NCBI GenBank assembly: GCA_964580635.1
Contig: CAZOMF010000002.1
Coordinates: 1-35,301, forward strand
Reading direction: 5' to 3'
Source: an uncultured Dehalococcoidaceae bacterium
GTDB taxonomy: Bacteria > Chloroflexota > Dehalococcoidia > Dehalococcoidales > RBG-16-60-22
DNA: 35,301 nt
The notes under the pieces are model-generated. The model was not told where the DNA came from and made no database searches. It was given only the letters and a program-made list of their open reading frames with translations. The position numbers were made by a program, and so were the translations under genes. Below are positions 15,862 to 30,407 of this stretch, one piece after another. Every line of letters starts with the position of its first letter. Within the stretch, counting starts at the first letter, position 1.

Positions 15862-18102
15862 ATGAAGAAACGAATTTTATGGGGGGTAGTGGGGCTGGCC
15901 GGTCTGCTGGTAATGGCGCTGCTGATCGTCTCATGCCAGGGCTCGCCGGGGGCAACCGGTCCGGCGGGAGCGACCGGACCTGCGGGACCCGCCGGGCCAG
16001 CCGGACCTGCCGGCGCCACCGGCGCAACCGGTCCGCAGGGACCGGCCGGACCAGCCGGGCCTGCCGGCCCCATGGCTCCCGGCATCGATACCGGGGAGAA
16101 CGTCACCGTGCAGATTTCCCAGCCGGCCAACGGGCAATACCTGGCCGTGGGCGAAGCAGCGACGGTAACCGTGATGCTGAAGGACAACTACGGGAACGCC
16201 CTGTCCCGGTCGGACTTCAGCACGCTCAGTCTGTACCTCGATGGTCCGCAGGAGACCACCGAGACGGTTACGGCCGTAAAGATGCTCAACGCGAGCACCG
16301 ACCGCAGCCAGAACCCGCACTACTACATCGATCTCCTGACGAACCCTGACGCGCAGGAGAGCAACGGTGTGGTCACCTACAAGCTCCAGCCGGTCAGCGA
16401 CGAGCTGCCCGGGACCTACATGGTCGGCGTCAGGGCGATCAAGAAGGACAACGCGCTGGACCAGAGCTTCCCGCTCCAGAGTTTCCAGCTCGGTACCGCG
16501 ACGGTGGAGGCCCAGATAGTGAGCGCCGACAACTGCGGCAGCTGCCACTACGATGCCCTGAACGGGCAGTACTACCTTCATCACACCCAGGTCTCCAGCC
16601 GCAGCGCGGTCGGCAGCCCGGCCCTCGATTCGCTGCCGGTCGAGACCTGCAAGTTCTGCCACAACAACGACGGCTACGCCGCTTACCACGGCAATATCGA
16701 CGATCCCTCGGCCGGGACCGACGTCGAGACCCCGGATCCCATCGTGCGGCGCGTGCACGGCGTCCATATGGGCTCCCAGCTCGAGAACCCGTTCAATACC
16801 GATAACGCCACCGGCAACTTCGCGGACTTCACGTCCGTCGTGTTCCCGGCGAATGTGGAGAACTGCACCGCCTGCCATACCGATGACCGGTGGAAGACCG
16901 AGCCGTCCATCGAGGCGTGCGGCTCCTGCCACGACAACATCTGGTTCGGCCCGGTGGCCGATATGCCGGCCACGGCCGAGGCCCATCCCGGCGGCCCGCA
17001 GTCGAACGACCAGCTGTGCAGCGCCTGCCACCCGGCGGATGGCCCGTCGCCTTCCGTCTCTGGCGCTCACGACGTGACGCAGACGCTCGATACACTCGAT
17101 ATCACCATGACGCCGCCGGCCAACGGCAAGTACTACGTCGACGGCGAAGCACCCAAGATCACCATCAACGTCCTCGACGACAACGGCAACGTCGTCGACC
17201 CGACCATGGTCACGGATGCCAACTTCTCAGGGGCCGACCTCTTCGTCTACGGCCCGCGCGACATGGCCAGGCCGGTCCTCACCCTCGCTTCCCATGACCT
17301 CGGCACCGGCTACGACAATCCCAACGACCTGCTCGATCCCGCCGCGGACCCGGCCATCTCCGTGACGGCGTCCGGTATCACCTACCAGCTCGATGCCATC
17401 CAGGGTCTCGATGCCGGCACCTATATGGTGTACTCCTTCATCAACCCGAAGGAAGGCGCGGTCGCCGACATGACGGCCAACTCGGCCATCGGGCTGATCA
17501 ACTTCCAGGTCGGCACGGCCACCGTGGAACCCAAGATAGCCGAGAACTGCACCGACTGCCACGGCAATACCATCTGGCATGACGACGGCACCCATATCCA
17601 TCCCGAGCCGTTCGATACCGACTACTGTCTCGCCTGCCACGACTACGGCCGCGGCGGCACCGGCGACCTGTGGGCCGCCATCGGCGGGAACTCCACCAGC
17701 GGCTTCGCCGGCTACGGCGCCCAGCCGCTCTCGAACCGCGTTCATGGCGTCCACTACGGCGCCTACGTGGCTAATCCGGACTACATCACCTCCAACGGCG
17801 CCTTCTCGGACGTCGTCTTCCCGCAGGACATCAGGGATTGCCAGAAGTGCCACGATTCGAACACCTCCGGCGCCTGGAACTCCGACCCGAACCGGCTGGC
17901 TTGCAGCGGCTGCCACAACGATGGCACCGCCCTCGCTCACATGAATACGATGATCGATAACTTCAACCGGCTCGATCCGTACAGCGAGGACTCCACCCCG
18001 GCCTGCGAGATCTGCCACGGCGCCGATGCCGACTTCGCCCCGGCCAAGGTACACAGCATCGCCAACCCGTACGTACCGCCGTACCCGCGCGCCGGCGGCT
18101 AG
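15862..18102 (+). CDS. Lipoprotein decaheme c-type cytochrome with a collagen-like stalk (MtrC/OmcA-like domain layout)
   Basis: 746 aa. Signal peptide plus lipobox LIVS-C25. (G-X-Y)15 at residues 27-71. Ten CxxCH motifs at C225, 263, 335, 353, 386 and C563, 589, 660, 681, 715. The internal duplication is visible: QLGTATVEAQIV..NCGSCH vs QVGTATVEPKIAENCTDCH; RRVHGVHMG vs NRVHGVHYG; FTSVVFPANVENCTACH vs FSDVVFPQDIRDCQKCH. AAGAGG lies 5 nt upstream of the ATG. Confidence 0.9.
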   Translation: MKKRILWGVVGLAGLLVMALLIVSCQGSPGATGPAGATGPAGPAGPAGPAGATGATGPQGPAGPAGPAGPMAPGIDTGENVTVQISQPANGQYLAVGEAATVTVMLKDNYGNALSRSDFSTLSLYLDGPQETTETVTAVKMLNASTDRSQNPHYYIDLLTNPDAQESNGVVTYKLQPVSDELPGTYMVGVRAIKKDNALDQSFPLQSFQLGTATVEAQIVSADNCGSCHYDALNGQYYLHHTQVSSRSAVGSPALDSLPVETCKFCHNNDGYAAYHGNIDDPSAGTDVETPDPIVRRVHGVHMGSQLENPFNTDNATGNFADFTSVVFPANVENCTACHTDDRWKTEPSIEACGSCHDNIWFGPVADMPATAEAHPGGPQSNDQLCSACHPADGPSPSVSGAHDVTQTLDTLDITMTPPANGKYYVDGEAPKITINVLDDNGNVVDPTMVTDANFSGADLFVYGPRDMARPVLTLASHDLGTGYDNPNDLLDPAADPAISVTASGITYQLDAIQGLDAGTYMVYSFINPKEGAVADMTANSAIGLINFQVGTATVEPKIAENCTDCHGNTIWHDDGTHIHPEPFDTDYCLACHDYGRGGTGDLWAAIGGNSTSGFAGYGAQPLSNRVHGVHYGAYVANPDYITSNGAFSDVVFPQDIRDCQKCHDSNTSGAWNSDPNRLACSGCHNDGTALAHMNTMIDNFNRLDPYSEDSTPACEICHGADADFAPAKVHSIANPYVPPYPRAGG
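15940..16074 (+). repeat. Collagen-like G-X-Y triplet repeat (15 triplets) inside the cytochrome gene
   Basis: GSP GAT GPA GAT GPA GPA GPA GPA GAT GAT GPQ GPA GPA GPA GPM. Nearly every copy uses different synonymous codons (ggt ccg gcg / gga cct gcg / gga ccc gcc / ggg cca gcc ...). Confidence 0.9.
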
Positions 18103-18310: not shown

Positions 18311-20080
18311 ATGTCCTACCAGATACTGCTCTCGGTGATGAGCCCTGAGACCGGAGTGAAGAAAGCCCCCGGCGCCCCGCCGCCCGGAATGGGTGCGCCG
18401 GCCAAAGGAAAAGCGACCAGGGCCAAACGGCTCGATACGCTGGAAGGCAAGACCGTCTACCTGGTGGATACCGGCTTCGGCGGGGGCTATAACTTCTTCG
18501 TGCAGCTCCAGAAATGGTTCCAGGAGCATATGCCATCCGTCAGGACCGTCCGCAAGCGCAAGCCGGGCAACCTGTTCCGGGACGATAACGACACCCTCTG
18601 GGAGGAGATCAAGCAGAAGGGCGATGCCGCGGTCGTCGGGGTGGCCGGCTGACCGGGCTGCGTGACGGCGGTCGCCGCCAGCCACACCAAGCTCGAACAG
18701 ACCTACGGTGTCCCCGTGGCCCCGCTCTCCACCTACCAGTTCCAGACGGTGGTCCAGGGTAACCCGATGTCTTCCTCGCTGCCCTTCGTGTACACGCCGC
18801 ACCCGGTCATCGGCCTGTCTCCGGAGGCGCTCGACGCCTACATAATCGGCGAGGACCCGGACACCGGGAAGACCGTCATCGACGAGATCATCGATGTCCT
18901 CACAAAACCGGTCGAACGCAACAGCGGGAAACCCGCCGCCTCGGCCTCCGGCGAACCGGCAGCGACCGGGACCACGCTCGGCCCGGACACCGAGGACAAC
19001 CTCCAGCGCCTGTTCTACGAGCGGGGCTGGACGGACGGCCTGCCCGTCATCCTGCCCACCGAGGAGCGCGTCCGGGCGATGCTGAAGGGCACCAGCGCCG
19101 CCCCGGACGAGGTCGTGGCCGAGCAGTTCTCGTTCGCGACGCGGGAGATGATACAGTACACCGTCGAGCACTTCGCGGTCATCGCGGTGATGGCCGGCGC
19201 CCGGCCGGAGTACTTCCCGGTCATCCTCGCCATCGGAGCGACCAAGCAGAGCTCGCTCATGCCCTCCACCACCCCCTTCGAGGCGATGCTGCTCGTTAAC
19301 GGTCCCGTCCGGCGGGAGATCGGCATGAACTGCGGCATCGGCGCCTACAGCGCCGTCAACATGGCCAACGCGGTGCTGGGCCGGGCCTGGACGCTGATGA
19401 GCATCGTCCACGGGTTCGCCAGGCCGCGGTCCACGCTGTGGAGTTCGCAGGGCAACAACCATACCTACAACAATATGTGCGCCGGCGAGAACGAGGAGGC
19501 GAGCGTCTGGGAACCGTTCCACGTTACCAAAGGCTTCACCGCCGAAGAGAGCGTCGTCAGCATTTTCCGGGGCTGGAGCTTCCTCAACAGCACCGGGGCG
19601 GCCTCCAAGCGCTCGCTCGGGGAGGAGCTGAACCTCCAGCTCGCCGTCATGCCGCCCGTTAACTCGTCGTGCACCATCATCATGGACCCGCTCGTGGCGA
19701 AGAACCTGAAGGAGAACGAGGGCTACGCCACGAGGCAGGACTTCACCGGATGGATGTCCGAGAATATCAGGATGCCGAACGGGCAGTTCTGGAAGACGGA
19801 CTACATCGATATGCTCGTCGCCTCCGAGGCGTACAAGGGCGTCGAACCCTACGCGTCCTGGAAAGCGCTCCCGGACGACGCCATGATAGCCCCCTACCAC
19901 AAGCCGGAGAACATCAATATCATCGTCGTGGGCGGCGAGACGAGCCCGCTCTGGAAGGTGGCGGACTACGGCTACTCCGGCAGTTCCTCCGTCGACCGCT
20001 GGCGACCGCTCGCCGCCGACGCGGACTGTCCCGACGGTTCCTGCGGTCTGTCAGACCCCGTGGGCGACTACGACGAGTAG
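18311..20080 (+). CDS. Predicted selenoprotein: U-x-x-C (UPGC) redox module fused to an uncharacterised ~450-aa domain; in-frame TGA at 18650-18652 read as Sec114
   Basis: Track ORFs 18311..18652 and 18662..20080 are in the same frame, separated only by TGA. The sequence across the junction is ...GDAAVVGVAG-U-PGCVTAVAASHTKLEQTYGVPVAPL.... The downstream part has no ATG or SD of its own. The paralog at 23216..24904 has a TGA at the aligned position (...LDTLIVAYGD-U-GSCTKYSLYNAISAEERGIPAVAV...). A hairpin with a GGUC apical loop starts 3 nt after the TGA. Confidence 0.75.
18656..18683 (+). other. Candidate bacterial SECIS hairpin for the TGA at 18650
   Basis: GGCTGCGTGACGGCGGTCGCCGCCAGCC. Lower stem is 18656-18659 with 18680-18683. 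Upper stem is GGC/GCC closing the apical loop GGUC (18670-18673). Further pairs are 18666-18677, 18664-18678 and 18662-18679, leaving a bulged U at 18663. The loop sits about 18-21 nt after the UGA. Confidence 0.4.
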
Positions 20081-20609: not shown

Positions 20610-21101
20610 ATGATGAACTTCAAAAACAATATCACCAGACGAGACTTTCTGAAACGTATCGTTATCGGCGGCGCCGGCGCCGTCGCCGCGGCCATCGCCA
20701 CGCCGCTCATCGGTTCGTTCCTCAGCCCCCTATGGCAGAAGAGCAAAAAACCGGCCATCGCGGTGGCCCATACTGACCAGATACCAGTCGGCACGCCGAC
20801 CTTTGTCCGCTTCGAAGAGCGCGCGCCGGACGGCTGGCTGGTGACGACGGAGAGCCTGGGCGTCTGGATACTCACCCAGGACGGTAAAAACTTTACCCTC
20901 TACGACCCGCACTGCACGCACCTGCGCTGCCCGTTCTACTGGGACGCTCAGAAGAAAACGTTCATGTGCCCGTGCCATGGCGGAGAGTTCGATATCGACG
21001 GCAACGTCATCGCCGGGCCGCCGCCCCGCCCGCTGGACCGCTGGGAGTTTACGATCCAGGACGGTGAAATCATCACGTCAGGGGAGATAATCAAAGGTTA
21101 A
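20610..21101 (+). CDS. Rieske [2Fe-2S] protein of a cytochrome bc-type complex, Tat-exported
   Basis: 163 aa. Twin-arginine motif TRRDFLK followed by a TM helix. Box I is CTHLRCP and box II is CPCHGGEF, including the disulfide cysteines typical of bc1/b6f Rieske proteins. Confidence 0.92.
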   Translation: MMNFKNNITRRDFLKRIVIGGAGAVAAAIATPLIGSFLSPLWQKSKKPAIAVAHTDQIPVGTPTFVRFEERAPDGWLVTTESLGVWILTQDGKNFTLYDPHCTHLRCPFYWDAQKKTFMCPCHGGEFDIDGNVIAGPPPRPLDRWEFTIQDGEIITSGEIIKG

Positions 21102-23129
21102 ATGGCTGAGCAAAAAAACAACGGCTGGGTTGAAGAGCGCCTATCGCTCAAAAAGCCCTGGGGATGGTTCCTAGACCGGAAAGTGCCGCGCACCGGGTGG
21201 GTGTATACCCTCGGCAGCGCTACGATGTTCGTGTTCATCATCCAGGTGATGACGGGCATCTTCCTGATGTTCAACTACTCACCGTCGCCGGACCACGCCT
21301 GGGACAGCATCAATTACATTATGACCAACGTGACCTTCGGCGCGTTCATACGGAGCATGCACTTCTACGCGGCCAGCGCCATGGTCATTCTCGTTATCCT
21401 GCACCTGGTGCGTGTCTTTTTCATGGCGGCCTATAAATACCCGCGCGAGCTCACCTGGGTCGTTGGCGTCGGGCTCCTGCTGCTGGTGCTCGGCTCGTCC
21501 TTTACCGGTTACCTGCTGCCCTGGGACCAGCGGGCTTACTGGGCTACCAACGTCGCCTCCGGCATCGCCGGTGAAACGCCGTTTATCGGTCACTGGGTAC
21601 AGGCCCTCCTCATAGGAGGGTCCCAGATAGGCACGGTGACGCTCACGCGTTTCTTTACCTTCCACGTCATCGTCATCCCGGCGCTGACCGCCGGGCTCAT
21701 CGGTCTCCACCTGATGATGGTGGTGCGCCAGGGCATCTCGGCCTCGCCCCGCAAGATGAAGGGTCAGATGCTGCCCGCCCAGACCGTGAAGGACGCCTAC
21801 GAAGCCGAATACGAAGCCAGCAAGAAGGACGGCGAGTCCTTCTTCCCCGGTACCTTGGCCAAGGATACCATCATGGCACTGGCGGTGGTAGGCGTCATCA
21901 TGCTGCTGGCCGCCCTCTTCCCGCATGTCAGCCAGGCCCCGGCGGACCCCACCAGCACGACCTATAACCCCCGCCCCGAGTGGTACTTCCTCTTCTTCTT
22001 CGAGTTCCTCAAGCTCTTCCCCGGCTCACTGGAGTCGGTGGCCGCGGTCCTGGTGCCCGCGCTCGCCTTCCTGCTGCTGCTGGCAGTGCCGTTCCTGAGC
22101 CGCGGCTTCCGGCGTACCTGGTCGAGCCGCAAGGTTTCCCTCTCCGTCGGCGGAGTGGTCGTGGCCGGGTTGCTCATCTTTGAGGTACTCGGCGCGGCAT
22201 CGGCCCCGGCGCGACCGGAGGTCGGCCTCACCGAGGTCCAGGTACAGGGGCAGCGCGTCTACCAGGAGGTTAACTGCGGCTACTGCCACACCATCAACGG
22301 CATCGGCGGCGCCGTCGGTCCCGACCTCTCCAATATCGCTTCGACGCTCACCCCGGACCAGATAAAAGCCTATCTCAGCAACCCGGACGCGATGGTGCCC
22401 AACACGCTCCATCCCAAGCTTCAGTTCACGCCGGACGAGCTGAACGAGCTGACCGCCTATCTCTCCACTTTGGGCGCGCCGGTAAGCTACAGCGCCCAGG
22501 CCCCGGGTCTCTTCGACAAATATTGCAGCAGCTGCCATGCCGTCAACGGCCAGGGCGGCACCATCGGGCCCGACCTGACCGATGTCGGCAGCCGGCACCC
22601 GCTGACCTTCATCGAATCGTTCATCAGCGATCCCGGTTCCGTGGTTACCGGCGCCAGCATGCCCGCCTTCCACGATAAGCTGACTCAGGACCAGATCAAC
22701 GATATCGCCGGCTATCTCTTCAGTCTCAAGAACAGCGCTGCCACGCCGACACCGACCGCGACAGCCACGACGCCCAGCCCGACGGCGACCACCACCACGA
22801 CGCCGACCATGACGACGACCAGCCATACGGCCACGACCACGCCGAGCCCGACTACTACGACGACCAGCCCCACGGCTACCACCACCACGACGACGGCCGC
22901 GATCGATGCCGCCGGTCTTTACACGCAGTATTGCGCCGGGTGCCACGGGGACAGCCGGCAGGGAGGTATCGGGCCGGCGCTGACGCCATCGATACTGGGC
23001 GGCCAGTCGATTTCGGAGATAACCGGCGTGATCACCCAGGGTAAAGAAAACATGCCGGGTTTCTCCAGTCTGTTAAGCGCCGACCAGATCGACGCCCTGG
23101 CCAACTACATACAGACCTCACAACCCTAA
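21102..23129 (+). CDS. Fused cytochrome b (b6-like) + subunit IV + three monoheme cytochrome c domains
   Basis: 675 aa. The ATG abuts the Rieske TAA. Helix B histidines are SMH-x13-H and helix D histidines are FH-x14-H (b6/Firmicute-type spacing). Qo-site motif PEWYF. Then CGYCH, CSSCH, a Thr/Pro-rich linker and CAGCH, each followed by an MP-type methionine ligand region. Confidence 0.9.
   Translation: MAEQKNNGWVEERLSLKKPWGWFLDRKVPRTGWVYTLGSATMFVFIIQVMTGIFLMFNYSPSPDHAWDSINYIMTNVTFGAFIRSMHFYAASAMVILVILHLVRVFFMAAYKYPRELTWVVGVGLLLLVLGSSFTGYLLPWDQRAYWATNVASGIAGETPFIGHWVQALLIGGSQIGTVTLTRFFTFHVIVIPALTAGLIGLHLMMVVRQGISASPRKMKGQMLPAQTVKDAYEAEYEASKKDGESFFPGTLAKDTIMALAVVGVIMLLAALFPHVSQAPADPTSTTYNPRPEWYFLFFFEFLKLFPGSLESVAAVLVPALAFLLLLAVPFLSRGFRRTWSSRKVSLSVGGVVVAGLLIFEVLGAASAPARPEVGLTEVQVQGQRVYQEVNCGYCHTINGIGGAVGPDLSNIASTLTPDQIKAYLSNPDAMVPNTLHPKLQFTPDELNELTAYLSTLGAPVSYSAQAPGLFDKYCSSCHAVNGQGGTIGPDLTDVGSRHPLTFIESFISDPGSVVTGASMPAFHDKLTQDQINDIAGYLFSLKNSAATPTPTATATTPSPTATTTTTPTMTTTSHTATTTPSPTTTTTSPTATTTTTTAAIDAAGLYTQYCAGCHGDSRQGGIGPALTPSILGGQSISEITGVITQGKENMPGFSSLLSADQIDALANYIQTSQP
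22737..22901 (+). repeat. Thr/Pro/Ala-rich low-complexity linker coding region
   Basis: Encodes AATPTPTATATTPSPTATTTTTPTMTTTSHTATTTPSPTTTTTSPTATTTTTTAA, between the second and third cytochrome c domains. Confidence 0.85.
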
Positions 23130-23154: not shown

Positions 23155-23194
23155 AACCGCCTCCGGGTTTGATCCCGGAGGCGGTTTTCTTTTC
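23155..23194. terminator. Bidirectional intrinsic terminator between convergent genes
   Basis: AACCGCCTCCGGG tttgat CCCGGAGGCGGTT (13-bp stem) followed by TTCTTTTC on the plus strand and TTATTTATTC on the minus strand. Confidence 0.85.
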
Positions 23195-23215: not shown

Positions 23216-24904
23216 CTAGTACCGGACGTAATTCGGGACGACGTTCTTGTACTTTTTGACGAGCTTGTCCCAGTTCTGTGGGAACTCTATCTTCTGTATC
23301 TCGGCGCAACCCGGCGTCGGCACGCCGCCCATCGCGTGGGCGATGAACGAGCCTGGCCCGCCGGCCACGAGCACCCGGATCACCCGCGGGTCGCGGACGA
23401 GCGGCAGGGTATCGCCCTCGCGGGCGGTGACGTGCCCCTTGAAGAGCTTGGGTGCGCCCTGTCCCATCGCCCGTCCCCGCTGGGTCGCCGGCAGGCGCTT
23501 GTACTCGCAGATGAAGTCCCGGATGTCCTGCTTGGTCCAGCCGAAGGAGGCCAGCGTCTTGGCGTGGAGCGGCGGGAACATGATGGAGTAGCCGAAGCCC
23601 GGCACGATGTTGTCCAGCACGGACCGCATGATGCCGTCCTCGTCGTTGCTCGGCGGATAGTGCTGGACGTAAGACTGCGGGAAGGTCAGCATGAGGGTGC
23701 TGTCCTCGCGGCTGAAGCCGTACTCGGTGTGGAGCGGTTCCCAGGGGCTCTCCTCCTCGTTCTCCGGCATGACGGCGGTGTACTTCATCGGGTTGCCCAT
23801 GACGCCCATGTCCTCGATGCCCTTGCGGACGCCGCCGAGGTTCTTGATGACGAAGCCCAGCGCCCGTCCGATAGCCGCGTTGGCGATATTACCCGGGCTC
23901 AGCACGCCGGAGCTGCTGTTGAGGTTGATCTGGCCCCGGACGGGCCCGTTGACGGTCCAGAACGGCGCCCAGGAACCGGTGCTGACGCCGAAGGTAGTGA
24001 AGCCCTGGAAACCCATCTCCGAATCGAGCAGCAGCCGCGTCCCGGCCAGGATGACCGGCAGGTGGGTGGGCAGGGCGCCGGCCATGACGGCGTTGACGGC
24101 TACCTTCTCCACCGTCACCTTGCCCAGGCGCGGGATAAGCTTGCCGAGGAGCGTGTCCCGGGCGAGGTCCGTGCCCGTCAGCATCTCGGCGACGCGGTCC
24201 TCGGTCGGGGGGATGATGGGGAAGCCGTCCGTCCAGCCGCGCTGGTAGTAGAAGCGGTTGACGTCGTCGAGGCTGCCCTTGAAGACGAGCCGGCTGACCT
24301 TCTCCGTTTTCGCCGGGGCGGGCGAGCGCTCCGCCTCGGTGAGGGGCGTCACCGCTGCCTTGACGATGGCGTCCACGGCGAGCAGTGTGTTCTGTTCGAT
24401 GACGTCGAGCATGGTGGATTCCGGCGGCACCGTGGTGGGCACGAAGCGCACCCCCGGCATGGCCCGGCTCGAAGCGGCCGAGTGGGCGTCCTCGATGAAG
24501 CCGTCGTTGATGACGGCGACGGCCGGGATGCCGCGCTCTTCCGCGGAAATTGCATTGTACAAACTGTACTTGGTGCAGGACCCTCAGTCGCCGTAGGCGA
24601 CGATGAGGGTGTCGAGACCCTTGAGCCAGTCTTCGAACTTCTCCTTGTTGATGGATTCCGCCTCCGGCGTGTTCATCTGGGTCTCCTGGTACCAGGCGAA
24701 GGTGGCGTCCGGGTAGCGCCGGGAGAGCTCTTTTTCCAGCACGTCGAGCAGCGGCTTGGAGGCGCGTTTCCAGATGTGGTAGAGGCCGATGGTCTTGCCG
24801 GCGAGGTCGGCGGGGCGTTCAACAGTGAGGCCGCGTGGCGCCACCGGGTCGACCTCCGCCCAGGGACTGAGCGTTTCGTACGCGGGGGATGCGTTCTGTG
24901 GCAT
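23216..24904 (-). CDS. Predicted selenoprotein paralog: U-x-x-C (UGSC) module fused to the same uncharacterised domain; in-frame TGA at 24586-24584 read as Sec107
   Basis: Track ORFs 24584..24967 and 23216..24562 share a frame and are separated only by TGA. The true start is probably ATG at 24904 (MPQNASPAYETL), with GGAGGT 4 nt upstream. Blocks shared with the 18311 gene: GKT(V/I), D-x8-U-x-x-C, G(V/I)P(V/A), (Y/F)Y(E/Q)RGWTDG(L/F)P(V/I)I(L/P)PTE(E/D)RV, AV(I/N)AVMAGA, NGPVR, ENEE.S.WEP(F/L)H. Confidence 0.75.
24551..24577 (-). other. Weak candidate SECIS hairpin for the TGA at 24586
   Basis: On the minus strand: UGCA CCAA GUAC aguuu GUAC AA UGCA. Two 4-bp stems with an internal loop, starting 6 nt after the UGA. 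This stretch is unusually AT-rich for coding sequence here. There is no GGUC loop, so support is weak. Confidence 0.3.
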
Positions 24905-25059
24905 ACTTACCTCCTGATACGGGTTTGCGCAGCGTTCGCCCCGACACGCGGGGCGGCGCCTGTCCATTCATCATATACGATACGCAAGCGCACCGCCACC
25001 ATGCGTTGCCGTTATTCCGCGTTGTGAAACACACGCACGGAGCACGCGTTTTTTCGTAA

Positions 25060-25229: not shown

Positions 25230-26132
25230 ATGTCGAATGCAATACATGATTGGATGGTCAACTATACCCGCCAGACCGAGTGGATAGACCGACGCGGTCT
25301 TTTCCTCTGGGTGGCCTTTTTCTCCGGCACGCTCGGCGGCGGCCTCTACCTGGCGTCGCTCTATTTCAACAGCATCTGGGGCATGTTCGCCGGCTGGCTC
25401 ATCGTCGCCGTCATCAAGGGCGGCGCTCACATGATGGACCTCGGCAAGCCATGGCGCGCCTGGCGCATGGTGATGCGGCCCGGCTCTTCTTGGATGTCCC
25501 GCGGGCTCATCTTCGTATTTACCTTCATCGGCGCCGGCGCCGTCCAGCTCGCCCTCTCGCTCTGGCTGCCAGGCAGCGCCGCCGAGATCACCAGCAAGAT
25601 ACTGGCCGGCATGGCCGCCTTCGGCGTGGCCATCTACAGCGGCTTCGTGCTCAACACGGTCAAGGGCGTGCCCTTCTGGAACTCGGCCCTCCTGCCCATG
25701 CTCGTCGGCCTCTACGGCGTGCTCTGCGGGCTCGGCGTGATGATGGTCATCGGCCTCGCCGGCAGCAGCATCGACCTCACCCTCGCCGAGGGCGTCAGCC
25801 GCTACCTCATCTTCACCACTACCGCCCTCATCGCCGTCTATCTCTGGACGGCCGCCCGGCGCGGCCCCACCGGCCGGAACTCTGTCCTCCAGCAGGTCCG
25901 CGGCGAGCTGAAGACGGTCTTCTGGGGCGGCCTCGTGACGCTCGGCATCGTGGTGCCGGTCGTCATCGCCATCGTGAGCTTCTTCGTCAGCGAGGTATCC
26001 CCGGTGCTGCTTGTCATCGGCGTCGTCTCCGAGGTCGTCGGCGGGCTCTCGCTCGGCTTCTGCGTGCTCAAGGCCGGGGCTTACAAACCCCTCGTCGCCA
26101 GGCCCGCCCACAGCCGCCAGCCCGTTCGCTAG
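25230..26132 (+). CDS. NrfD/PsrC-like polytopic membrane protein (putative quinone-interacting anchor), orphan
   Basis: 300 aa with about 8 TM helices. The N-terminal pattern W..R.LFLWVAFFSGTLGGGLYL resembles the first helix of NrfD-family subunits; this assignment is by eye. GGAAGGAG lies upstream of the ATG. The gene has its own promoter and terminator, and no adjacent 4Fe-4S or catalytic subunit gene. Confidence 0.55.
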   Translation: MSNAIHDWMVNYTRQTEWIDRRGLFLWVAFFSGTLGGGLYLASLYFNSIWGMFAGWLIVAVIKGGAHMMDLGKPWRAWRMVMRPGSSWMSRGLIFVFTFIGAGAVQLALSLWLPGSAAEITSKILAGMAAFGVAIYSGFVLNTVKGVPFWNSALLPMLVGLYGVLCGLGVMMVIGLAGSSIDLTLAEGVSRYLIFTTTALIAVYLWTAARRGPTGRNSVLQQVRGELKTVFWGGLVTLGIVVPVVIAIVSFFVSEVSPVLLVIGVVSEVVGGLSLGFCVLKAGAYKPLVARPAHSRQPVR

Positions 26133-26153
26133 AACGTTCATTATCGTTACAAC

Positions 26154-26185
26154 AAAAAGCCCCCGCATTTGTGGGGGCTTTTTAT
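26154..26185. terminator. Bidirectional intrinsic terminator between the NrfD-like and URO-D-family genes
   Basis: AAAAAGCCCCCGC attt GTGGGGGCTTTTT. The GC stem is flanked by an A-run and a T-run. Confidence 0.85.
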
Positions 26186-26200
26186 TGTAGCTGAACCGGT

Positions 26201-27472
26201 CTAGTAGACGCCGAACTCTTTCACCGCGTCCACCCAGGCCCTGACGAGCGCCGGCTGGCTGCCGCCCATTTCGCCGACACCGGTAGACATCAGGAAGCCG
26301 CCGCCCTTGCCGGCGTGCTCGCACACCTTCCGGGTACGTTCGCGGACCTCTTCCGGCGTGCCCGCCGCCAGCATCGAGTTCGGCATGCCGCCGATGATGC
26401 ACATCGTGCCTCCCACGATGTCCTTGACCTTGAAGATATCGCTCGCCTGGAACCAGCCCACCGTCTTGCCCTTCGGCAGCTCGGCCAGGTACTCGAGCCG
26501 CTGGTCCCAGATGCCCTCGTAGAACACGACCGGGCGGATGCCGTTCTCCACGAGCGTCACCAGCACGTGCTTGAGCTGGGGCCAGTAGAACTTCTCGAAC
26601 TGCTTGAGTGACATGAACCCGTCCGAGCCCCGGTGGAGCGGCAGGAAGGCGTTCTCCATGCCGGTGGCCTTGCACATGGTGATGGCGTACTCGAGCTGGA
26701 ACCTGGCCACCTTCTCCTCGGCGGCCAGCAGTTTGTCCGGCCGCTGCATCAGGTCGAGCATGATGCCGCGCATGCCCCGCATGGTGTCGGACATGAGGTC
26801 GAAGGGCGCCTCGATGCCCGCCCCGGCCAGGATGCTGCCCGGGAACCCGAGTGCCGCCATGCGCTGGGCGCTTTCGATGACCCGCATCGTGCCGTCGGCC
26901 ACGGCCTGGATGACCTTGGCGAAGGTCTTCAGCGATTCCGCCAGCGGTCCCATGCCGAACCCGCCGACGTTGCTCATGAAGTAGCTGCCGGACACGAACA
27001 TGGCGAGCGGCGGCAGCAGTGTGAAGCCTTCGAGCTTCTCGTACGCCCGCGGCAGGTACGTGCGGATGGCCCAGTCCGACGGGTCTTCCAGGAAGGCGTC
27101 GTAATCGTCCGCCTTCATGAACTCGTGCTCGACGAACTGGTACTGGTTATCGGGGGCGAGCTGGTGGCCCGGCCAGGCCGTCATCCGGTCGCCGAGCATG
27201 AGGTAGGGGGTTGGGTCACCCGGCAGCGGCCCGAAGATAGAGTCCGGCTGGTATTCCAGCGCCGCCTGCTCCAGCAGCTCCTGGCATTTGTCCGGGTTAT
27301 CGAGGAGTTCCTGCTTGGTGATGCCGCCGATCTCCGCCAGCATGTAGCTGATCGGCATCATGATCGGGACGCGGTCCGGCTGACGCAGGTTGAGGACGTC
27401 GTTGAGCCGCCTGGTGCGTTCCTGCAAGAGCTGTTCGGGTTTCTTACCGGCGTCGCTGTTGCTGCTTGGCAT
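26201..27472 (-). CDS. Uroporphyrinogen decarboxylase (URO-D) family protein, MtaA/CmuA-like methyltransferase-type
   Basis: 423 aa. The overall pattern is that of URO-D-fold proteins (N-terminal ...PDRVPIM..., C-terminal ...GGGFLMSTG...); this family call is by eye. ATG at 27472 with GGGAGGA upstream. Lies downstream of the MFS gene on the same strand. Confidence 0.75.
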   Translation of the reverse strand: MPSSNSDAGKKPEQLLQERTRRLNDVLNLRQPDRVPIMMPISYMLAEIGGITKQELLDNPDKCQELLEQAALEYQPDSIFGPLPGDPTPYLMLGDRMTAWPGHQLAPDNQYQFVEHEFMKADDYDAFLEDPSDWAIRTYLPRAYEKLEGFTLLPPLAMFVSGSYFMSNVGGFGMGPLAESLKTFAKVIQAVADGTMRVIESAQRMAALGFPGSILAGAGIEAPFDLMSDTMRGMRGIMLDLMQRPDKLLAAEEKVARFQLEYAITMCKATGMENAFLPLHRGSDGFMSLKQFEKFYWPQLKHVLVTLVENGIRPVVFYEGIWDQRLEYLAELPKGKTVGWFQASDIFKVKDIVGGTMCIIGGMPNSMLAAGTPEEVRERTRKVCEHAGKGGGFLMSTGVGEMGGSQPALVRAWVDAVKEFGVY

Positions 27473-29212: not shown

Positions 29213-30196
29213 TTATTCTTTGGTGCGGAGTTGCGCTCCCCGCGAGGGCTCCTCCCGGCCGCTCCGGTACTTCTTCACGTACTCGTCGAAGTCCCAGGTG
29301 CTGAAGAACTTCTGCGCCGCCTTCCGGCCGGACTCGTAGAGGGCCTCGCTCTTTTCCTTCGTGATATCGAACTCGGTCGTCCGCACGCCGAGGGTGGGTA
29401 TGGCCACCGTCCGCACGAAGTCGTGGTCGGCGATGTAGCGGGCATCGTGGGCCTCCATCATGGCGCTGAAGAGTGCCGTCAACATGCTCACCGGTCCCTT
29501 GATATCGGCCGGTTCGCCGGCGTCCGGCTCGACGAGCTTGAACCCGATAGTCGGCCAGGTGGGCGCGTCCGCGGTGTCGAAGAGCCAGACGGGATAGTTG
29601 CTGAGGATGCCCCCGTCCACGATGTAGCTCTTGCGGCCCGTTGTGAGGTTCTTCAGCGTCGCCGGCTCGTAGAAGAACGGGATGCTCATGCTCATCCGTA
29701 CCGCGTCCGCCACGTTGAGGTCTTCCGGACGGCCGCCGTAGTCGCGGATATCGCCGGGCAGCACCAGCAGCCTGCCGAGCGTGATGTCCGAGGCAATCAC
29801 GTTGAGCTTGAACCGGTAGCGGTCCTCCGTCTCGCCGGGAATGAGCAGGTCCCCGAAGGTCGTGATCCCCTTGGCCGCGAGCAGGTCGCGGAGCCAGTCG
29901 TGGAAATAGTCGCCTTCGTAGATGCCCTTCTCGGTGATGAGGCTGATGACCGGACCGGCCAGGGGAATCCGGTCGACCGGACTGCCGTCCTTGAAGCGCC
30001 GGTAATCGAGTTTGCTCAGGATGTCGTGAAGCTCGGCCGCCTTATACCCGGCCGCCGCCAGCGCCGCGATGATGGCCCCCGCCGAGGTCCCGGCCAGGTT
30101 CTGCCACTCGACGTCCCGCTGCTCGGCCACCGCCAGCGCCCCGGCGAAGCCGATGCCCTTGACCCCGCCCCCTTCGAATACGCCGTCCGCTTTCAT
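29213..30196 (-). CDS. Patatin-like phospholipase
   Basis: Starts MKADGVFEGGGVKG (oxyanion GGGxKG). Nucleophile elbow GTSAG and catalytic Asp context IVDGGILSNYP. ATG at 30196 with AAAGGA upstream. The 16 extra codons in the track ORF are not needed. Confidence 0.88.
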   Translation of the reverse strand: MKADGVFEGGGVKGIGFAGALAVAEQRDVEWQNLAGTSAGAIIAALAAAGYKAAELHDILSKLDYRRFKDGSPVDRIPLAGPVISLITEKGIYEGDYFHDWLRDLLAAKGITTFGDLLIPGETEDRYRFKLNVIASDITLGRLLVLPGDIRDYGGRPEDLNVADAVRMSMSIPFFYEPATLKNLTTGRKSYIVDGGILSNYPVWLFDTADAPTWPTIGFKLVEPDAGEPADIKGPVSMLTALFSAMMEAHDARYIADHDFVRTVAIPTLGVRTTEFDITKEKSEALYESGRKAAQKFFSTWDFDEYVKKYRSGREEPSRGAQLRTKE

Positions 30197-30407
30197 GCTT
30201 GTCCTTTCATGGTTGCCACACCGTATGCAGAACGATGGTAACACGCTGCCGCTGGATTGTAAACGGAGTTTTGTCGCATTTTTCGGTCCGTTTTTCAGGT
30301 TGCGGCGCCCCGGATGCCGTGGTATAGTACCACAATACCCGGCACGGGGGGCGGCGCCTGGTAGTCATGTTCGCAGCATCCGTGCCGGAACGTGTCCGGA
30401 CGGTCGT

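What the first reader, a model, noticed from the sequence alone, without database searches (positions are those of the whole stretch)
23216..24904. Second hidden selenoprotein (UGSC motif), paralogous to the 18311 gene, convergent with the bc operon
ORFs 24584..24967 and 23216..24562 share a frame and are separated only by TGA. The junction reads ...LDTLIVAYGD-U-GSC-TKYSLYNAISAEERGIPAVAVIND.... The part after the TGA could otherwise only start at a TTG with no SD. Similarity to the first gene runs along the whole length on both sides of the TGA, and the Asp nine residues before U is aligned in both. The two loci therefore support each other's recoding. The two copies bracket the Rieske/cytochrome b operon.
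Basis: partly seen in the sequence, partly recalled or inferred. Interest (0 to 1): 0.85.

Follow-up and report, generated by a model that had tools for sequence, protein, structure and literature searches.

The report
Hidden UGSC-family selenoprotein gene, misannotated as two
One 562-codon gene is read through an internal UGA as selenocysteine, making it a real but unsurprising member of the known "UGSC" selenoprotein family, joined to a large domain of unknown function that public annotation splits into two hypothetical proteins.

Summary

**The gene.** Window 23216-24904 (minus strand) is a single gene. It has AGGAGG 5 nt before the ATG at 24904, an in-frame TGA at 24584-24586 (codon 107) and a TAG stop at 23216.

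**Evidence that the TGA is read as selenocysteine:**
- The Pfam UGSC domain (PF24696) runs across the TGA.
- In 75 of the 77 related genomic loci where the codon could be read, drawn from about ten phyla, the same codon is TGA. The context is [GA]D-U-G[SAG]C-T, with conserved protein sequence on both sides.
- Two loci, and many full-length database proteins, carry Cys at that position instead.
- A hairpin 9-36 nt after the UGA has G23 and U24 in its loop. It shows compensatory base changes between clades, and synonymous codon choice is strongly restricted over it.

**What is already known.** The UGSC-containing protein has been a recognised, abundant bacterial selenoprotein family since 2008. 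A UGSC/"Unknown_1" fusion was reported then. This is therefore a new member of a known kind.

**What remains open:**
- The C-terminal domain of about 350 residues has no Pfam, NCBIfam or PDB relative.
- The biochemical function is unknown.
- Selenocysteine machinery in this particular genome was not checked.
- TGA is almost never used as a stop codon in this window.

The parts
23216..24904 (-). Complete selenoprotein gene: 562 codons including Sec107, plus the TAG stop at 23216-23218
   Evidence: Single frame with one internal TGA. GC3 is 0.84-0.92 on both sides of the TGA. Orthologs with the same layout occur in 75 loci.
24910..24915 (-). Shine-Dalgarno sequence AGGAGG, 5 nt upstream of the ATG at 24902-24904
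   Evidence: Read directly from the sequence. The relative L001 has its upstream ORF called from the equivalent start (107 aa).
24584..24586 (-). UGA codon 107, decoded as selenocysteine (U of the UGSC motif)
   Evidence: TGA at the aligned codon in 75 of 77 loci and TGC in 2. Cys at this position in full-length homologs P0125, P0155, P0170, P0175, P0214 and others.
24551..24577 (-). SECIS-like hairpin. With U of UGA as position 1: outer stem U10-A36 to A13-U33, inner stem G18-C30, U19-A29, A20-U28, C21-G27, A22-U26, loop G23 U24 U25. The spurious TTG 'start' (24560-24562) lies inside it.
   Evidence: MFE fold. Pair counts on 52 sequences: 18-30 GC38/GU13/AU1, 19-29 UA50, 20-28 AU27/GC20, 21-27 CG29/GC20; covariation score 0.317 against 0.171 for shuffles, 0 of 500 shuffles as high. 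Normalised synonymous-codon entropy over codons +1 to +11 is 0.39 against 0.80 elsewhere (P 5e-5), and 0.35 against 0.68 in a second clade (P 1e-4).
24356..24826 (-). UGSC domain (residues 27-183), which spans the Sec codon
   Evidence: Pfam PF24696 at 101.3 bits (gathering cut-off 25). NCBIfam NF041046 at 86.8 bits, below its cut-off of 125. In the AlphaFold model of the Cys homolog P0125 the motif sits at the end of strand 3 and the start of helix 3 of a five-strand alpha/beta domain.
23219..24292 (-). C-terminal domain of about 350 residues (residues ~205-562), function unknown. Conserved motifs: YxRGWTDG[LF]PIIPPT, VEKIA[IV]NAVMAG, NGPxR, ANAxIGRA, ENEExSPWEP.
   Evidence: No Pfam or NCBIfam hit. 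No PDB sequence hit. None of the 50 Foldseek matches shown covers more than the N-terminal alpha/beta region, despite a model with pLDDT 85.9. It also occurs alone and in tandem in other proteins.
23155..23186 (.). Bidirectional intrinsic terminator (13-bp stem) shared with the convergent Rieske/cytochrome b operon
18311..20080 (+). Paralog (U-PGC motif, TGA at 18650-18652) with the same two-domain architecture
   Evidence: BLASTP 28% identity, E 3e-36, U aligned with U. Pfam UGSC at 55.6 bits across the TGA. TGA conserved in relatives L001, L002, L005 and L061. Hairpin in the same register with loop G22 U23.

Best explanation
Window 23216-24904 (minus strand) is one gene for a 562-residue selenoprotein.

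**Recoding step.** Translation starts at the ATG at 24904. At codon 107 the UGA is not read as stop. Instead it is decoded by Sec-tRNA(Sec), delivered by the elongation factor SelB. SelB is recruited by a hairpin that starts 9 nt after the UGA and presents G23 and U24 in its apical loop (a bacterial SECIS element).

**Protein.** The product has an N-terminal UGSC domain. This is an alpha/beta domain with Sec107-Gly-Ser-Cys110 at a strand-to-helix junction, the usual place for a redox-active UxxC/CxxC pair. It most likely cycles between a selenol/thiol and a selenenylsulfide. This domain is fused to a conserved C-terminal domain of about 350 residues and unknown function. That domain probably binds the substrate or partner on which the Sec/Cys pair acts.

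**Shown here:**
- one continuous reading frame;
- a protein domain spanning the UGA;
- conservation of the TGA across phyla;
- Cys-containing homologs;
- RNA-level constraint on the hairpin.

**Inferred, not shown:** actual Sec insertion, SelB dependence, the redox chemistry and the substrate.
For: - One frame with a single internal TGA and a good SD/ATG.
- PF24696 matches residues 27-183, across U107.
- Of the 77 related loci where the codon could be read, 75 have TGA at the aligned codon and 2 have TGC. They come from Dehalococcoidia, Thermodesulfobacteriota, Acidobacteriota, Alpha-, Beta- and Gammaproteobacteria, Methylomirabilota, Nitrospinota and others. The context [GA]D-U-G[SAG]C-T is conserved, and the upstream protein sequence is conserved right up to the TGA.
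- Full-length database homologs carry GDCGSCT or ADCGSCT. In a 100-sequence alignment the U column is C in 17 and the U+3 column is C in 77 of 86.
- Hairpin pair counts: pairs 20-28 and 21-27 switch AU/CG to GC/GC between clades, and pair 18-30 is paired in all 52 sequences.
- Synonymous-codon entropy is halved over the 11 codons after the UGA in two independent clades (P 5e-5 and 1e-4).
- The in-genome paralog, with an unrelated peptide after its U, has a hairpin in the same register.
- TGA still ends at least one gene in the window, and only these two in-frame TGAs exist, so the codon is not generally reassigned.
- Selenocysteine machinery and large selenoproteomes are reported for Dehalococcoidia (PMC4918011; PMC13326102).
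- The family is a recognised selenoprotein family (PMC2398784; PMC13188914).
Against: - No tRNA-Sec, selA, selB or selD lies in the window or in the 60 related loci scanned for tRNAs. The source genome could not be searched.
- No Rfam family matches the hairpin.
- On its own the hairpin is no more stable than shuffled or synonymously recoded sequence. Its z is about 0 for the window copy, and the mean z is -0.8 over 68 sequences.
- Cys-form loci do not uniformly lack a hairpin (L085 has none; L062 folds at -10.4 kcal/mol), so that control is inconclusive.
- In part of the Dehalococcoidia clade an alternative fold with a UAC loop competes with this one.
- The protein scores below the NCBIfam equivalog cut-off.
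- No experimental data are available.
Confidence: 0.92

Rival explanations
1. There are two separate genes. A 106-residue protein ends at the TGA, and a 448-residue protein starts at the TTG at 24562. This is how public gene calls treat the locus.
For: Every close database hit is called this way, as about 448 aa plus about 106 aa, all named 'hypothetical protein'.
Against: - The Pfam domain would be cut in the middle of its conserved motif.
- The TTG has no SD and lies inside the hairpin.
- Orthologs have no conserved start codon after the TGA, but they do have conserved sense codons G-[SAG]-C-T immediately after it.
- Continuous Cys-containing homologs exist.
Confidence: 0.02
2. The UGA is read through or reassigned to a standard amino acid (for example Trp, Gly or Cys) rather than to selenocysteine. 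This could happen because the lineage makes little use of UGA as a stop codon.
For: TGA ends only 1 of 22 genes in the window and 1 of 13 in the close relative L001, despite 64-65% G+C.
Against: - Only two in-frame TGAs exist in 35 kb, and both sit at the Cys-aligned redox position of UGSC-type domains.
- The same TGA is kept in proteobacteria and acidobacteria, which have no such stop-codon bias.
- A conserved hairpin with a GU loop follows the codon.
- The homologs closest in motif carry Cys at the site, although Ala is the commonest substitute overall. This Cys/Sec exchange is the classical signature of selenocysteine.
Confidence: 0.04
3. It is a pseudogene inactivated by a nonsense mutation.
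For: It has an internal stop codon under the standard genetic code.
Against: - The same codon is TGA in 75 loci across phyla.
- Protein conservation and coding-type GC3 are maintained on both sides.
- No other stop codon or frameshift is present.
Confidence: 0.01

Closest known systems
UGSC-containing selenoprotein family (Zhang & Gladyshev, GOS selenoproteome 2008, PMC2398784; NCBIfam NF041046 'UGSC family (seleno)protein'; Pfam PF24696)
   Same: It has the same domain (PF24696 at 101 bits) and the same U-G-S-C motif, with U encoded by an in-frame UGA. Cys-containing homologs exist. The UxxC arrangement matches. Function is unknown in both.
   Different: The family model describes a stand-alone protein of about 147 residues. 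This protein scores below the equivalog cut-off (86.8 against 125) and carries an extra C-terminal domain of about 350 residues. The AlphaFold model of a Cys homolog looks like a five-strand flavodoxin/Rossmann-type alpha/beta domain rather than the 'Trx-like fold' suggested in 2008.
UGSC/Unknown_1 fusion selenoprotein (Fig. S1A of PMC2398784)
   Same: An N-terminal UGSC domain is fused to a conserved downstream domain of unknown function. That domain also occurs on its own in some aquatic organisms. Marine alpha- and gammaproteobacterial loci found here have this architecture.
   Different: The published alignment is held only as an image and the sequence file is truncated. Identity of 'Unknown_1' with this C-terminal domain could therefore not be verified.
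Bacterial SECIS element of the E. coli fdhF type (own knowledge: Huttenhofer/Bock and Liu et al. 1998; bSECISearch model of Zhang & Gladyshev 2005)
   Same: The hairpin lies inside the coding sequence directly after the UGA. The loop presents G23 and U24, counted from the U of UGA. In the proteobacterial orthologs the 7-bp stem starts exactly 11 nt after the UGA.
   Different: The window copy has a short upper stem of 5 bp with a 3-nt loop, an internal loop instead of a bulged U17, and no Rfam match. SelB binding is untested.
Selenoprotein B subunits of glycine/betaine/D-proline reductases (GrdB, PrdB)
   Same: Both have a UxxC motif (PMC2398784, Table 2). Both are cytoplasmic enzymes in which Sec acts on a small-molecule substrate. 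Some homologs sit in clusters with Opp-type transporters and small-molecule catabolic genes.
   Different: No sequence similarity was detected: Pfam GRDB (PF07355) was not hit even at E<=10. The resemblance is an analogy only.

Membership tests
UGSC family (Pfam PF24696) | Domain match above Pfam's gathering score | tested here: met
   101.3 bits against a cut-off of 25, residues 27-183, profile positions 17-169 of 172. The N-terminal region alone gives 105 bits.
UGSC family (seleno)protein, NCBIfam NF041046 (equivalog) | Whole-protein score at or above the curated cut-off of 125 bits | tested here: not met
   86.8 bits. The fused homologs P0125, P0155 and P0135 also fall below it, at 76, 93 and 51 bits. 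The protein is therefore a domain-level relative, not the stand-alone equivalog.
UGSC-containing selenoprotein | U-G-S-C motif with U encoded by an in-frame TGA | tested here: met
   ...AYGD-TGA-GSC-TKY...
Selenoprotein (general bioinformatic criteria) | Homologs carry Cys at the position aligned with the in-frame UGA | tested here: met
   TGC in L062 and L082. GDCGSCT or ADCGSCT in P0125, P0155, P0175, P0217, P0223, P0225, P0231 and P0241. 17 Cys in the U column of A4.
Selenoprotein (general bioinformatic criteria) | The UGA and the flanking protein sequence are conserved in orthologs from different lineages | tested here: met
   75 of 77 loci from about ten phylum-level groups. The N-terminal fragment gives tblastn hits ending at the TGA in 44 loci.
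Selenoprotein (general bioinformatic criteria) | selA, selB, selC and selD present in the same genome | not testable with these tools
   None is present in the 35-kb window or in the fetched loci scanned for tRNAs. There is class-level support only (PMC4918011; PMC13326102).
Selenoprotein (general bioinformatic criteria) | Selenium detected in the protein | not testable with these tools
   This needs 75Se labelling or mass spectrometry.
Bacterial SECIS element | Stem-loop within about 40 nt downstream of the UGA, with G (GU) in the apical loop | tested here: met
   Window copy: stem 18-22/26-30 and loop G23 U24 U25, plus outer stem 10-13/33-36. The same register occurs in 52 orthologs.
Bacterial SECIS element | Structure maintained by selection (covariation, restricted synonymous change) | tested here: met
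   Two pairs show double compensatory change between clades. The covariation score exceeds all 500 shuffles and all slid controls. Synonymous entropy is 0.39 against 0.80 and 0.35 against 0.68. Stability measured against synonymous recoding is only weakly better, with mean z -0.8.
Bacterial SECIS element | Match to a curated Rfam SECIS model | tested here: not met
   No hit at the gathering score or at E<=10. Rfam's bacterial SECIS models cover few lineages (own knowledge).
UGSC/Unknown_1 fusion (PMC2398784, Fig. S1A) | The C-terminal domain is homologous to 'Unknown_1' | not testable with these tools
   The figure is stored as an image, and the supplementary sequence file is cut and contains no UGSC sequences.
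Thioredoxin-fold oxidoreductases | Trx fold (mixed sheet with beta-alpha-beta and beta-beta-alpha units) carrying the CxxC/UxxC motif | tested here: inconclusive
   The AlphaFold model of the Cys homolog has five alternating beta-alpha units. Its best Foldseek hits are lumazine synthase and flavodoxin-like or Fe-ADH N-terminal domains, at E about 1e-3 and target-normalised TM about 0.5. No thioredoxin appears among the 50 matches shown.

The most novel reading that the evidence does not exclude
The UGSC domain and its orphan C-terminal domain of about 350 residues may together form a previously uncharacterised selenoenzyme. The C-terminal domain has no Pfam, NCBIfam or PDB relative, although a high-confidence model is available. 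In this Dehalococcoidales lineage two divergent copies sit in one respiratory gene cluster. That cluster also holds a MtrC-like multihaem cytochrome, a Rieske/cytochrome b-c fusion and NrfD. The enzyme would then act as a Sec-dependent redox partner or substrate-reducing module of that electron-transport chain. A possibly linked reading is that near-total avoidance of TGA as a stop codon in this lineage reflects adaptation of the termination machinery to heavy selenocysteine use.
Probability: 0.12. Interest if true: 0.6.

Novelty: new member of a known kind. Interest (0 to 1): 0.3.

Why it matters
**Practical value.** The gene is mis-annotated wherever we looked. Both halves of this exact gene are stored as separate proteins (106 and 448 aa). 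None of the 240 listed relatives carries a name other than 'hypothetical protein', and the full-length Sec form never appears. Correcting such calls improves selenoproteome counts for Dehalococcoidia.

**Scientific value.** The selenocysteine call adds nothing conceptually new, because UGSC proteins have been among the most abundant known bacterial selenoproteins since 2008. The useful residue is the fusion partner. It is a large, widespread domain (4,651 representatives at 50% identity) with no known fold relative. It could give a handle on the still unknown function of the UGSC family.

Tried and rejected
- **Rfam scans** of the window and of the 300 nt around the TGA found nothing.
- **Single-sequence folding against shuffles** was uninformative, with z about -0.1.
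- **MFE against synonymous recoding** gave only a weak shift, so I moved to register-specific pair counts and synonymous-site entropy.
- **Pooled synonymous-entropy test** across all clades was not significant (P 0.11), because the peptide after the motif differs between clades. Per-clade tests were decisive.
- **Cys-form loci as a 'no hairpin' control:** only four had DNA, and the results were mixed.
- **Structure of the post-TGA part** with a shallow alignment gave a poor model (pLDDT 64) and no meaningful PDB match. It was replaced by a full-length Cys homolog with 100 sequences.
- **PDB sequence searches** with two profiles found nothing.
- **Lax Pfam and NCBIfam scans** for the C-terminal domain, or for a GrdB/PrdB link, found nothing.
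- **Checking the 2008 'Unknown_1' alignment** failed, because it is an image and the sequence file is truncated.
- **tRNA-Sec scan** of the window and 60 loci found none.
- **Look-up of the source contig** by exact protein found no record.
- **Gene-neighbourhood comparison** found the bc-operon context only in the three closest loci (L001-L003, from two assemblies) and no consistent context elsewhere.
Full report
**1. What is in the sequence**

On the minus strand, the reading frame from 24967 to 23216 has a single internal stop, the TGA at 24584-24586. The plausible start is the ATG at 24904, preceded by AGGAGG at 24910-24915 with a 5-nt spacer. The gene ends in TAG at 23216-23218. A 13-bp bidirectional terminator follows at 23155-23186. 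The convergent Rieske/cytochrome b operon uses the same terminator.

The read-through product is 562 residues, and the junction reads ...LDTLIVAYGD-U-GSC-TKYSLYN.... Coding-type GC3 is 0.84-0.92 on both sides of the TGA. A window-wide scan for an in-frame TGA with coding signal on both sides returns only this site and the one at 18650. The first start codon after the TGA is a TTG at 24560-24562 with no SD. It lies inside the hairpin described in section 4.

**2. The protein domain crosses the TGA**

With U written as C, Pfam PF24696 ('UGSC family') matches residues 27-183 at 101 bits against a gathering cut-off of 25. NCBIfam NF041046 ('UGSC family (seleno)protein', a 147-position equivalog model) matches residues 36-183 at 86.8 bits, below its cut-off of 125. 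The stop codon therefore sits in the middle of a recognised domain, at that domain's name-giving motif.

The remaining ~380 residues have no Pfam or NCBIfam match, even at E<=10.

**3. Comparative test of recoding**

*Close database hits.* A protein search returned 4,167 relatives. The best 120 are all about 448 residues, which corresponds to the post-TGA part only. Every one that carries a name is called 'hypothetical protein'.

*Genomic loci.* I fetched 80 genomic loci with flanks from one-genome-per-species contigs and translated upstream of each match in frame.
- 77 loci could be read at the aligned codon. Of these, 75 have TGA exactly one codon before G-[SAG]-C, and two (Burkholderiales/Betaproteobacteria, L062 and L082) have TGC.
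- The TGA loci carry labels from Dehalococcoidia, other Chloroflexota, Thermodesulfobacteriota, Acidobacteriota, Dormiibacterota, Methylomirabilota, Nitrospirota, Nitrospinota, and Alpha-, Beta- and Gammaproteobacteria.
- Protein sequence is conserved right up to the TGA (W[LV]KGVDAV[IV]AA[YV]GD-U). The window's 106-residue N-terminal part gives tblastn hits ending at the TGA in 44 loci.

*Full-length homologs.* An exhaustive profile-free search of 1.84 billion cluster representatives with the post-TGA part found 4,651 relatives. Many of them are 530-620 residues long with an N-terminal extension of about 100 residues. Their sequences show GDCGSCT or ADCGSCT (Cys forms; P0125 is 46% identical to the window protein), GDAGSC (Ala forms) and a few Ser forms.

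In a 100-sequence alignment, the U column is Ala 55, Cys 17, Met 7 and others 7. The U+3 column is Cys in 77 of 86.

A pseudogene or a two-gene reading cannot explain a TGA held at one codon across phyla, with selection on both sides.

**4. The SECIS element**

Positions are counted with the U of UGA as 1. The window mRNA can form G18-C30, U19-A29, A20-U28, C21-G27 and A22-U26, with loop G23 U24 U25. An outer stem runs from U10-A36 to A13-U33 (window 24551-24577).

On its own this hairpin is not more stable than shuffled sequence (z -0.1) or than synonymous recodings (z 0.07; mean -0.8 over 68 orthologs). The comparative evidence is much stronger:
- **Different peptide, same register.** In the proteobacterial clade the peptide after the motif differs (TSWCIHD instead of TKY[LS][VL]Y[DN]). 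Yet a 7-bp stem G15-C33 to G21-C27 with loop UGUAU forms in the same register, starting 11 nt after the UGA.
- **Pair counts.** On 52 distinct sequences, pair 18-30 is GC 38, GU 13, AU 1 and never unpaired. Pair 19-29 is UA in 50. Pairs 20-28 and 21-27 switch from AU/CG to GC/GC in 20 sequences. The covariation score is 0.317 against 0.171 for column shuffles (0 of 500 as high) and at most 0.144 for slid partners.
- **Synonymous sites.** Normalised codon entropy over codons +1 to +11 is 0.39 against 0.80 in the rest of the gene in the Dehalococcoidia-type clade (33 sequences, P 5e-5). It is 0.35 against 0.68 in the proteobacterial clade (25 sequences, P 1e-4). For example, Leu+7 is the rare CTT in 21 of 25, and Cys+7 is TGT in 18 of 18 while Cys+3 is TGC in 23 of 25.
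- **The paralog.** The in-window paralog has an unrelated peptide after its U (PGCVTAVAAS) but has G18-C30, G19-C29, C20-G28 and G21-C27 with loop G22 U23 C24 G25 C26.

From my own knowledge, loop G23/U24 and a spacing of 11 nt are the hallmarks of the E. coli fdhF SECIS element. I did not verify this here.

Caveats:
- Rfam has no match.
- Part of the Dehalococcoidia clade can adopt a competing fold with a UAC loop.
- The four Cys-form loci with DNA do not uniformly lack a hairpin.

**5. Is UGA generally reassigned?**

No. Only two in-frame TGAs exist in 35 kb, and TGA ends the MFS gene.

The stop-codon usage is nonetheless odd. It is TAG 15, TAA 6 and TGA 1 in a 64% G+C window, and TAG 7, TAA 5 and TGA 1 in the close relative L001. 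Two unrelated loci that carry Cys-form homologs use TGA in 6 of 10 and 8 of 16 genes. I record this as an unexplained side observation. It slightly raises the small probability of the 'read-through by a standard amino acid' rival.

**6. Selenocysteine machinery**

None is present in the window or in the fetched loci that were scanned. The window is a whole 35,301-bp NCBI contig, in which the two halves are stored as separate 106-aa and 448-aa proteins. Its assembly could not be retrieved.

The nearest genome label is Dehalococcoidales (94% amino-acid identity). In that class, Dehalogenimonas alkenigignens has selC, the Sec-synthesis genes and selB (PMC4918011). Dehalococcoidia MAGs are listed with 46-49 selenoproteins (PMC13326102). 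This gives plausibility at class level, not a test on this genome.

**7. The protein**

A full-length Cys homolog (P0125), modelled with a 100-sequence alignment, gave a confident model: pLDDT 85.9, pTM 0.85.

*N-terminal domain.* It has five alternating strand-helix units. The C/U-G-S-C motif lies at the end of strand 3 and the start of helix 3. Foldseek's best PDB matches are all weak (E about 1e-3) and cover only about 150-200 columns: lumazine synthase, flavodoxin-like domains and Fe-ADH N-terminal domains. The domain therefore looks like a flavodoxin/Rossmann-type domain rather than a thioredoxin fold. I could not inspect the coordinates.

*C-terminal domain.* None of the 50 Foldseek matches shown extends into it, and two profile searches find no PDB sequence relative. 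It also occurs alone (proteins of about 350 aa, and six loci lacking the UGSC part) and in tandem in proteins of about 710 aa.

*Mechanism.* This is inferred, with low confidence in the detail. Sec107 and Cys110 form a redox-active UxxC pair that serves the C-terminal domain. Many lineages keep only Cys110, with Ala or Met at the U position. This suggests Cys110 is the indispensable residue and that Sec/Cys107 is a catalytic enhancer.

*Gene context.* It gives no firm clue. The bc-operon, multihaem cytochrome and NrfD neighbourhood is found only in the three closest loci (L001-L003, from two assemblies). More distant homologs sit next to Opp-type transporters, SnoaL-like proteins, SDRs, glycyl-radical enzymes or acyl-CoA genes.

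**8. The paralog**

The gene at 18311-20080 has the same architecture. Pfam UGSC matches at 55.6 bits across its TGA, and it is 28% identical to the target, with U aligned to U.

Its own subfamily keeps TGA in a U-[PD]-G-C motif in L001/L002 (87% identity), L005 (42%) and L061 (39%). In L005 the two paralogs are adjacent and divergent, with no bc operon between them. Co-location of the pair therefore recurs, but the bracketing does not.

The target is 46-60% identical to orthologs in other phyla but only 28% identical to its genomic neighbour. The duplication therefore long predates this lineage.

**9. Comparison with what is known**

The 'UGSC-containing protein' was listed in 2008 as one of the most abundant selenoprotein families in ocean metagenomes, with 255 Sec forms, 21 Cys forms and a UxxC motif. 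The same paper reports a 'UGSC/Unknown_1' fusion, in which Unknown_1 also occurs alone in some aquatic organisms (PMC2398784). The family is still listed with function unknown in 2022 and 2026 reviews (PMC9312934; PMC13188914).

The architecture here very probably corresponds to that fusion. I could not verify it, because the published alignment is held as an image.

**10. Verdict**

The finding is real and correctly interpreted. It is a new member of a known selenoprotein family, not a new kind of thing. Its value is corrective, since public gene calls split it, and as a pointer to an uncharacterised, structurally orphan partner domain. Interest 0.3.

Noticed in passing
whole window (22 genes); L001: TGA is almost never used as a stop codon. 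The window has TAG 15, TAA 6 and TGA 1 at 64% G+C, and L001 has TAG 7, TAA 5 and TGA 1. Yet TGA is the commonest of the three trinucleotides overall (974, against 356 TAG and 255 TAA). Two unrelated loci of similar G+C use TGA for about half of their stops. This is unexplained. It may relate to release-factor content or to heavy selenocysteine use.
   Followed up: partly
window 15862-18102 (+): A 746-residue multihaem cytochrome c has MtrC/MtrF-like domains and a collagen-like (GPAGP/GATGP) repeat directly after its signal or lipobox-like N-terminus. This is an unusual combination, and it lies next to the paralog.
   Followed up: no
window 21102-23129 (+): Cytochrome b is fused to three c-type cytochrome domains. 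A long Thr/Pro-rich linker (PTPTATATTPSPTATTTTTP...) precedes the last domain. The gene follows a Rieske gene at 20610-21101.
   Followed up: no
L001 7898-8281 (-) compared with window 26132-26201: The close relative L001 has an extra 127-residue gene with a weak UGSC hit between URO-D and NrfD. The window has only a 68-nt gap at that place.
   Followed up: no
L005 782-2098 (-) and 3001-4344 (+): In another Dehalococcoidales genome the two paralog types (U-DGC and U-GSC) are adjacent and divergently transcribed, with no bc operon between them. This hints that the two proteins work together.
   Followed up: partly
alignment A4 (full-length homologs): A large subfamily has Ala (55 of 86) or Met (7) at the Sec position while keeping the second Cys (77 of 86). 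The U/C residue is therefore dispensable in many lineages.
   Followed up: partly
P0125 (L085 8001-9860): The closest Cys-form homolog carries an N-terminal twin-arginine signal (RRSFFRDLAITGAGMAAVPLLA). It is therefore probably exported, whereas the window protein has no signal peptide.
   Followed up: no
window 29213-30244 (-) and 30069-33023 (+): The patatin-like gene and the 984-residue Pyr_redox_2 ORF overlap by about 175 nt on opposite strands. The true start of the long ORF is probably further downstream.
   Followed up: no
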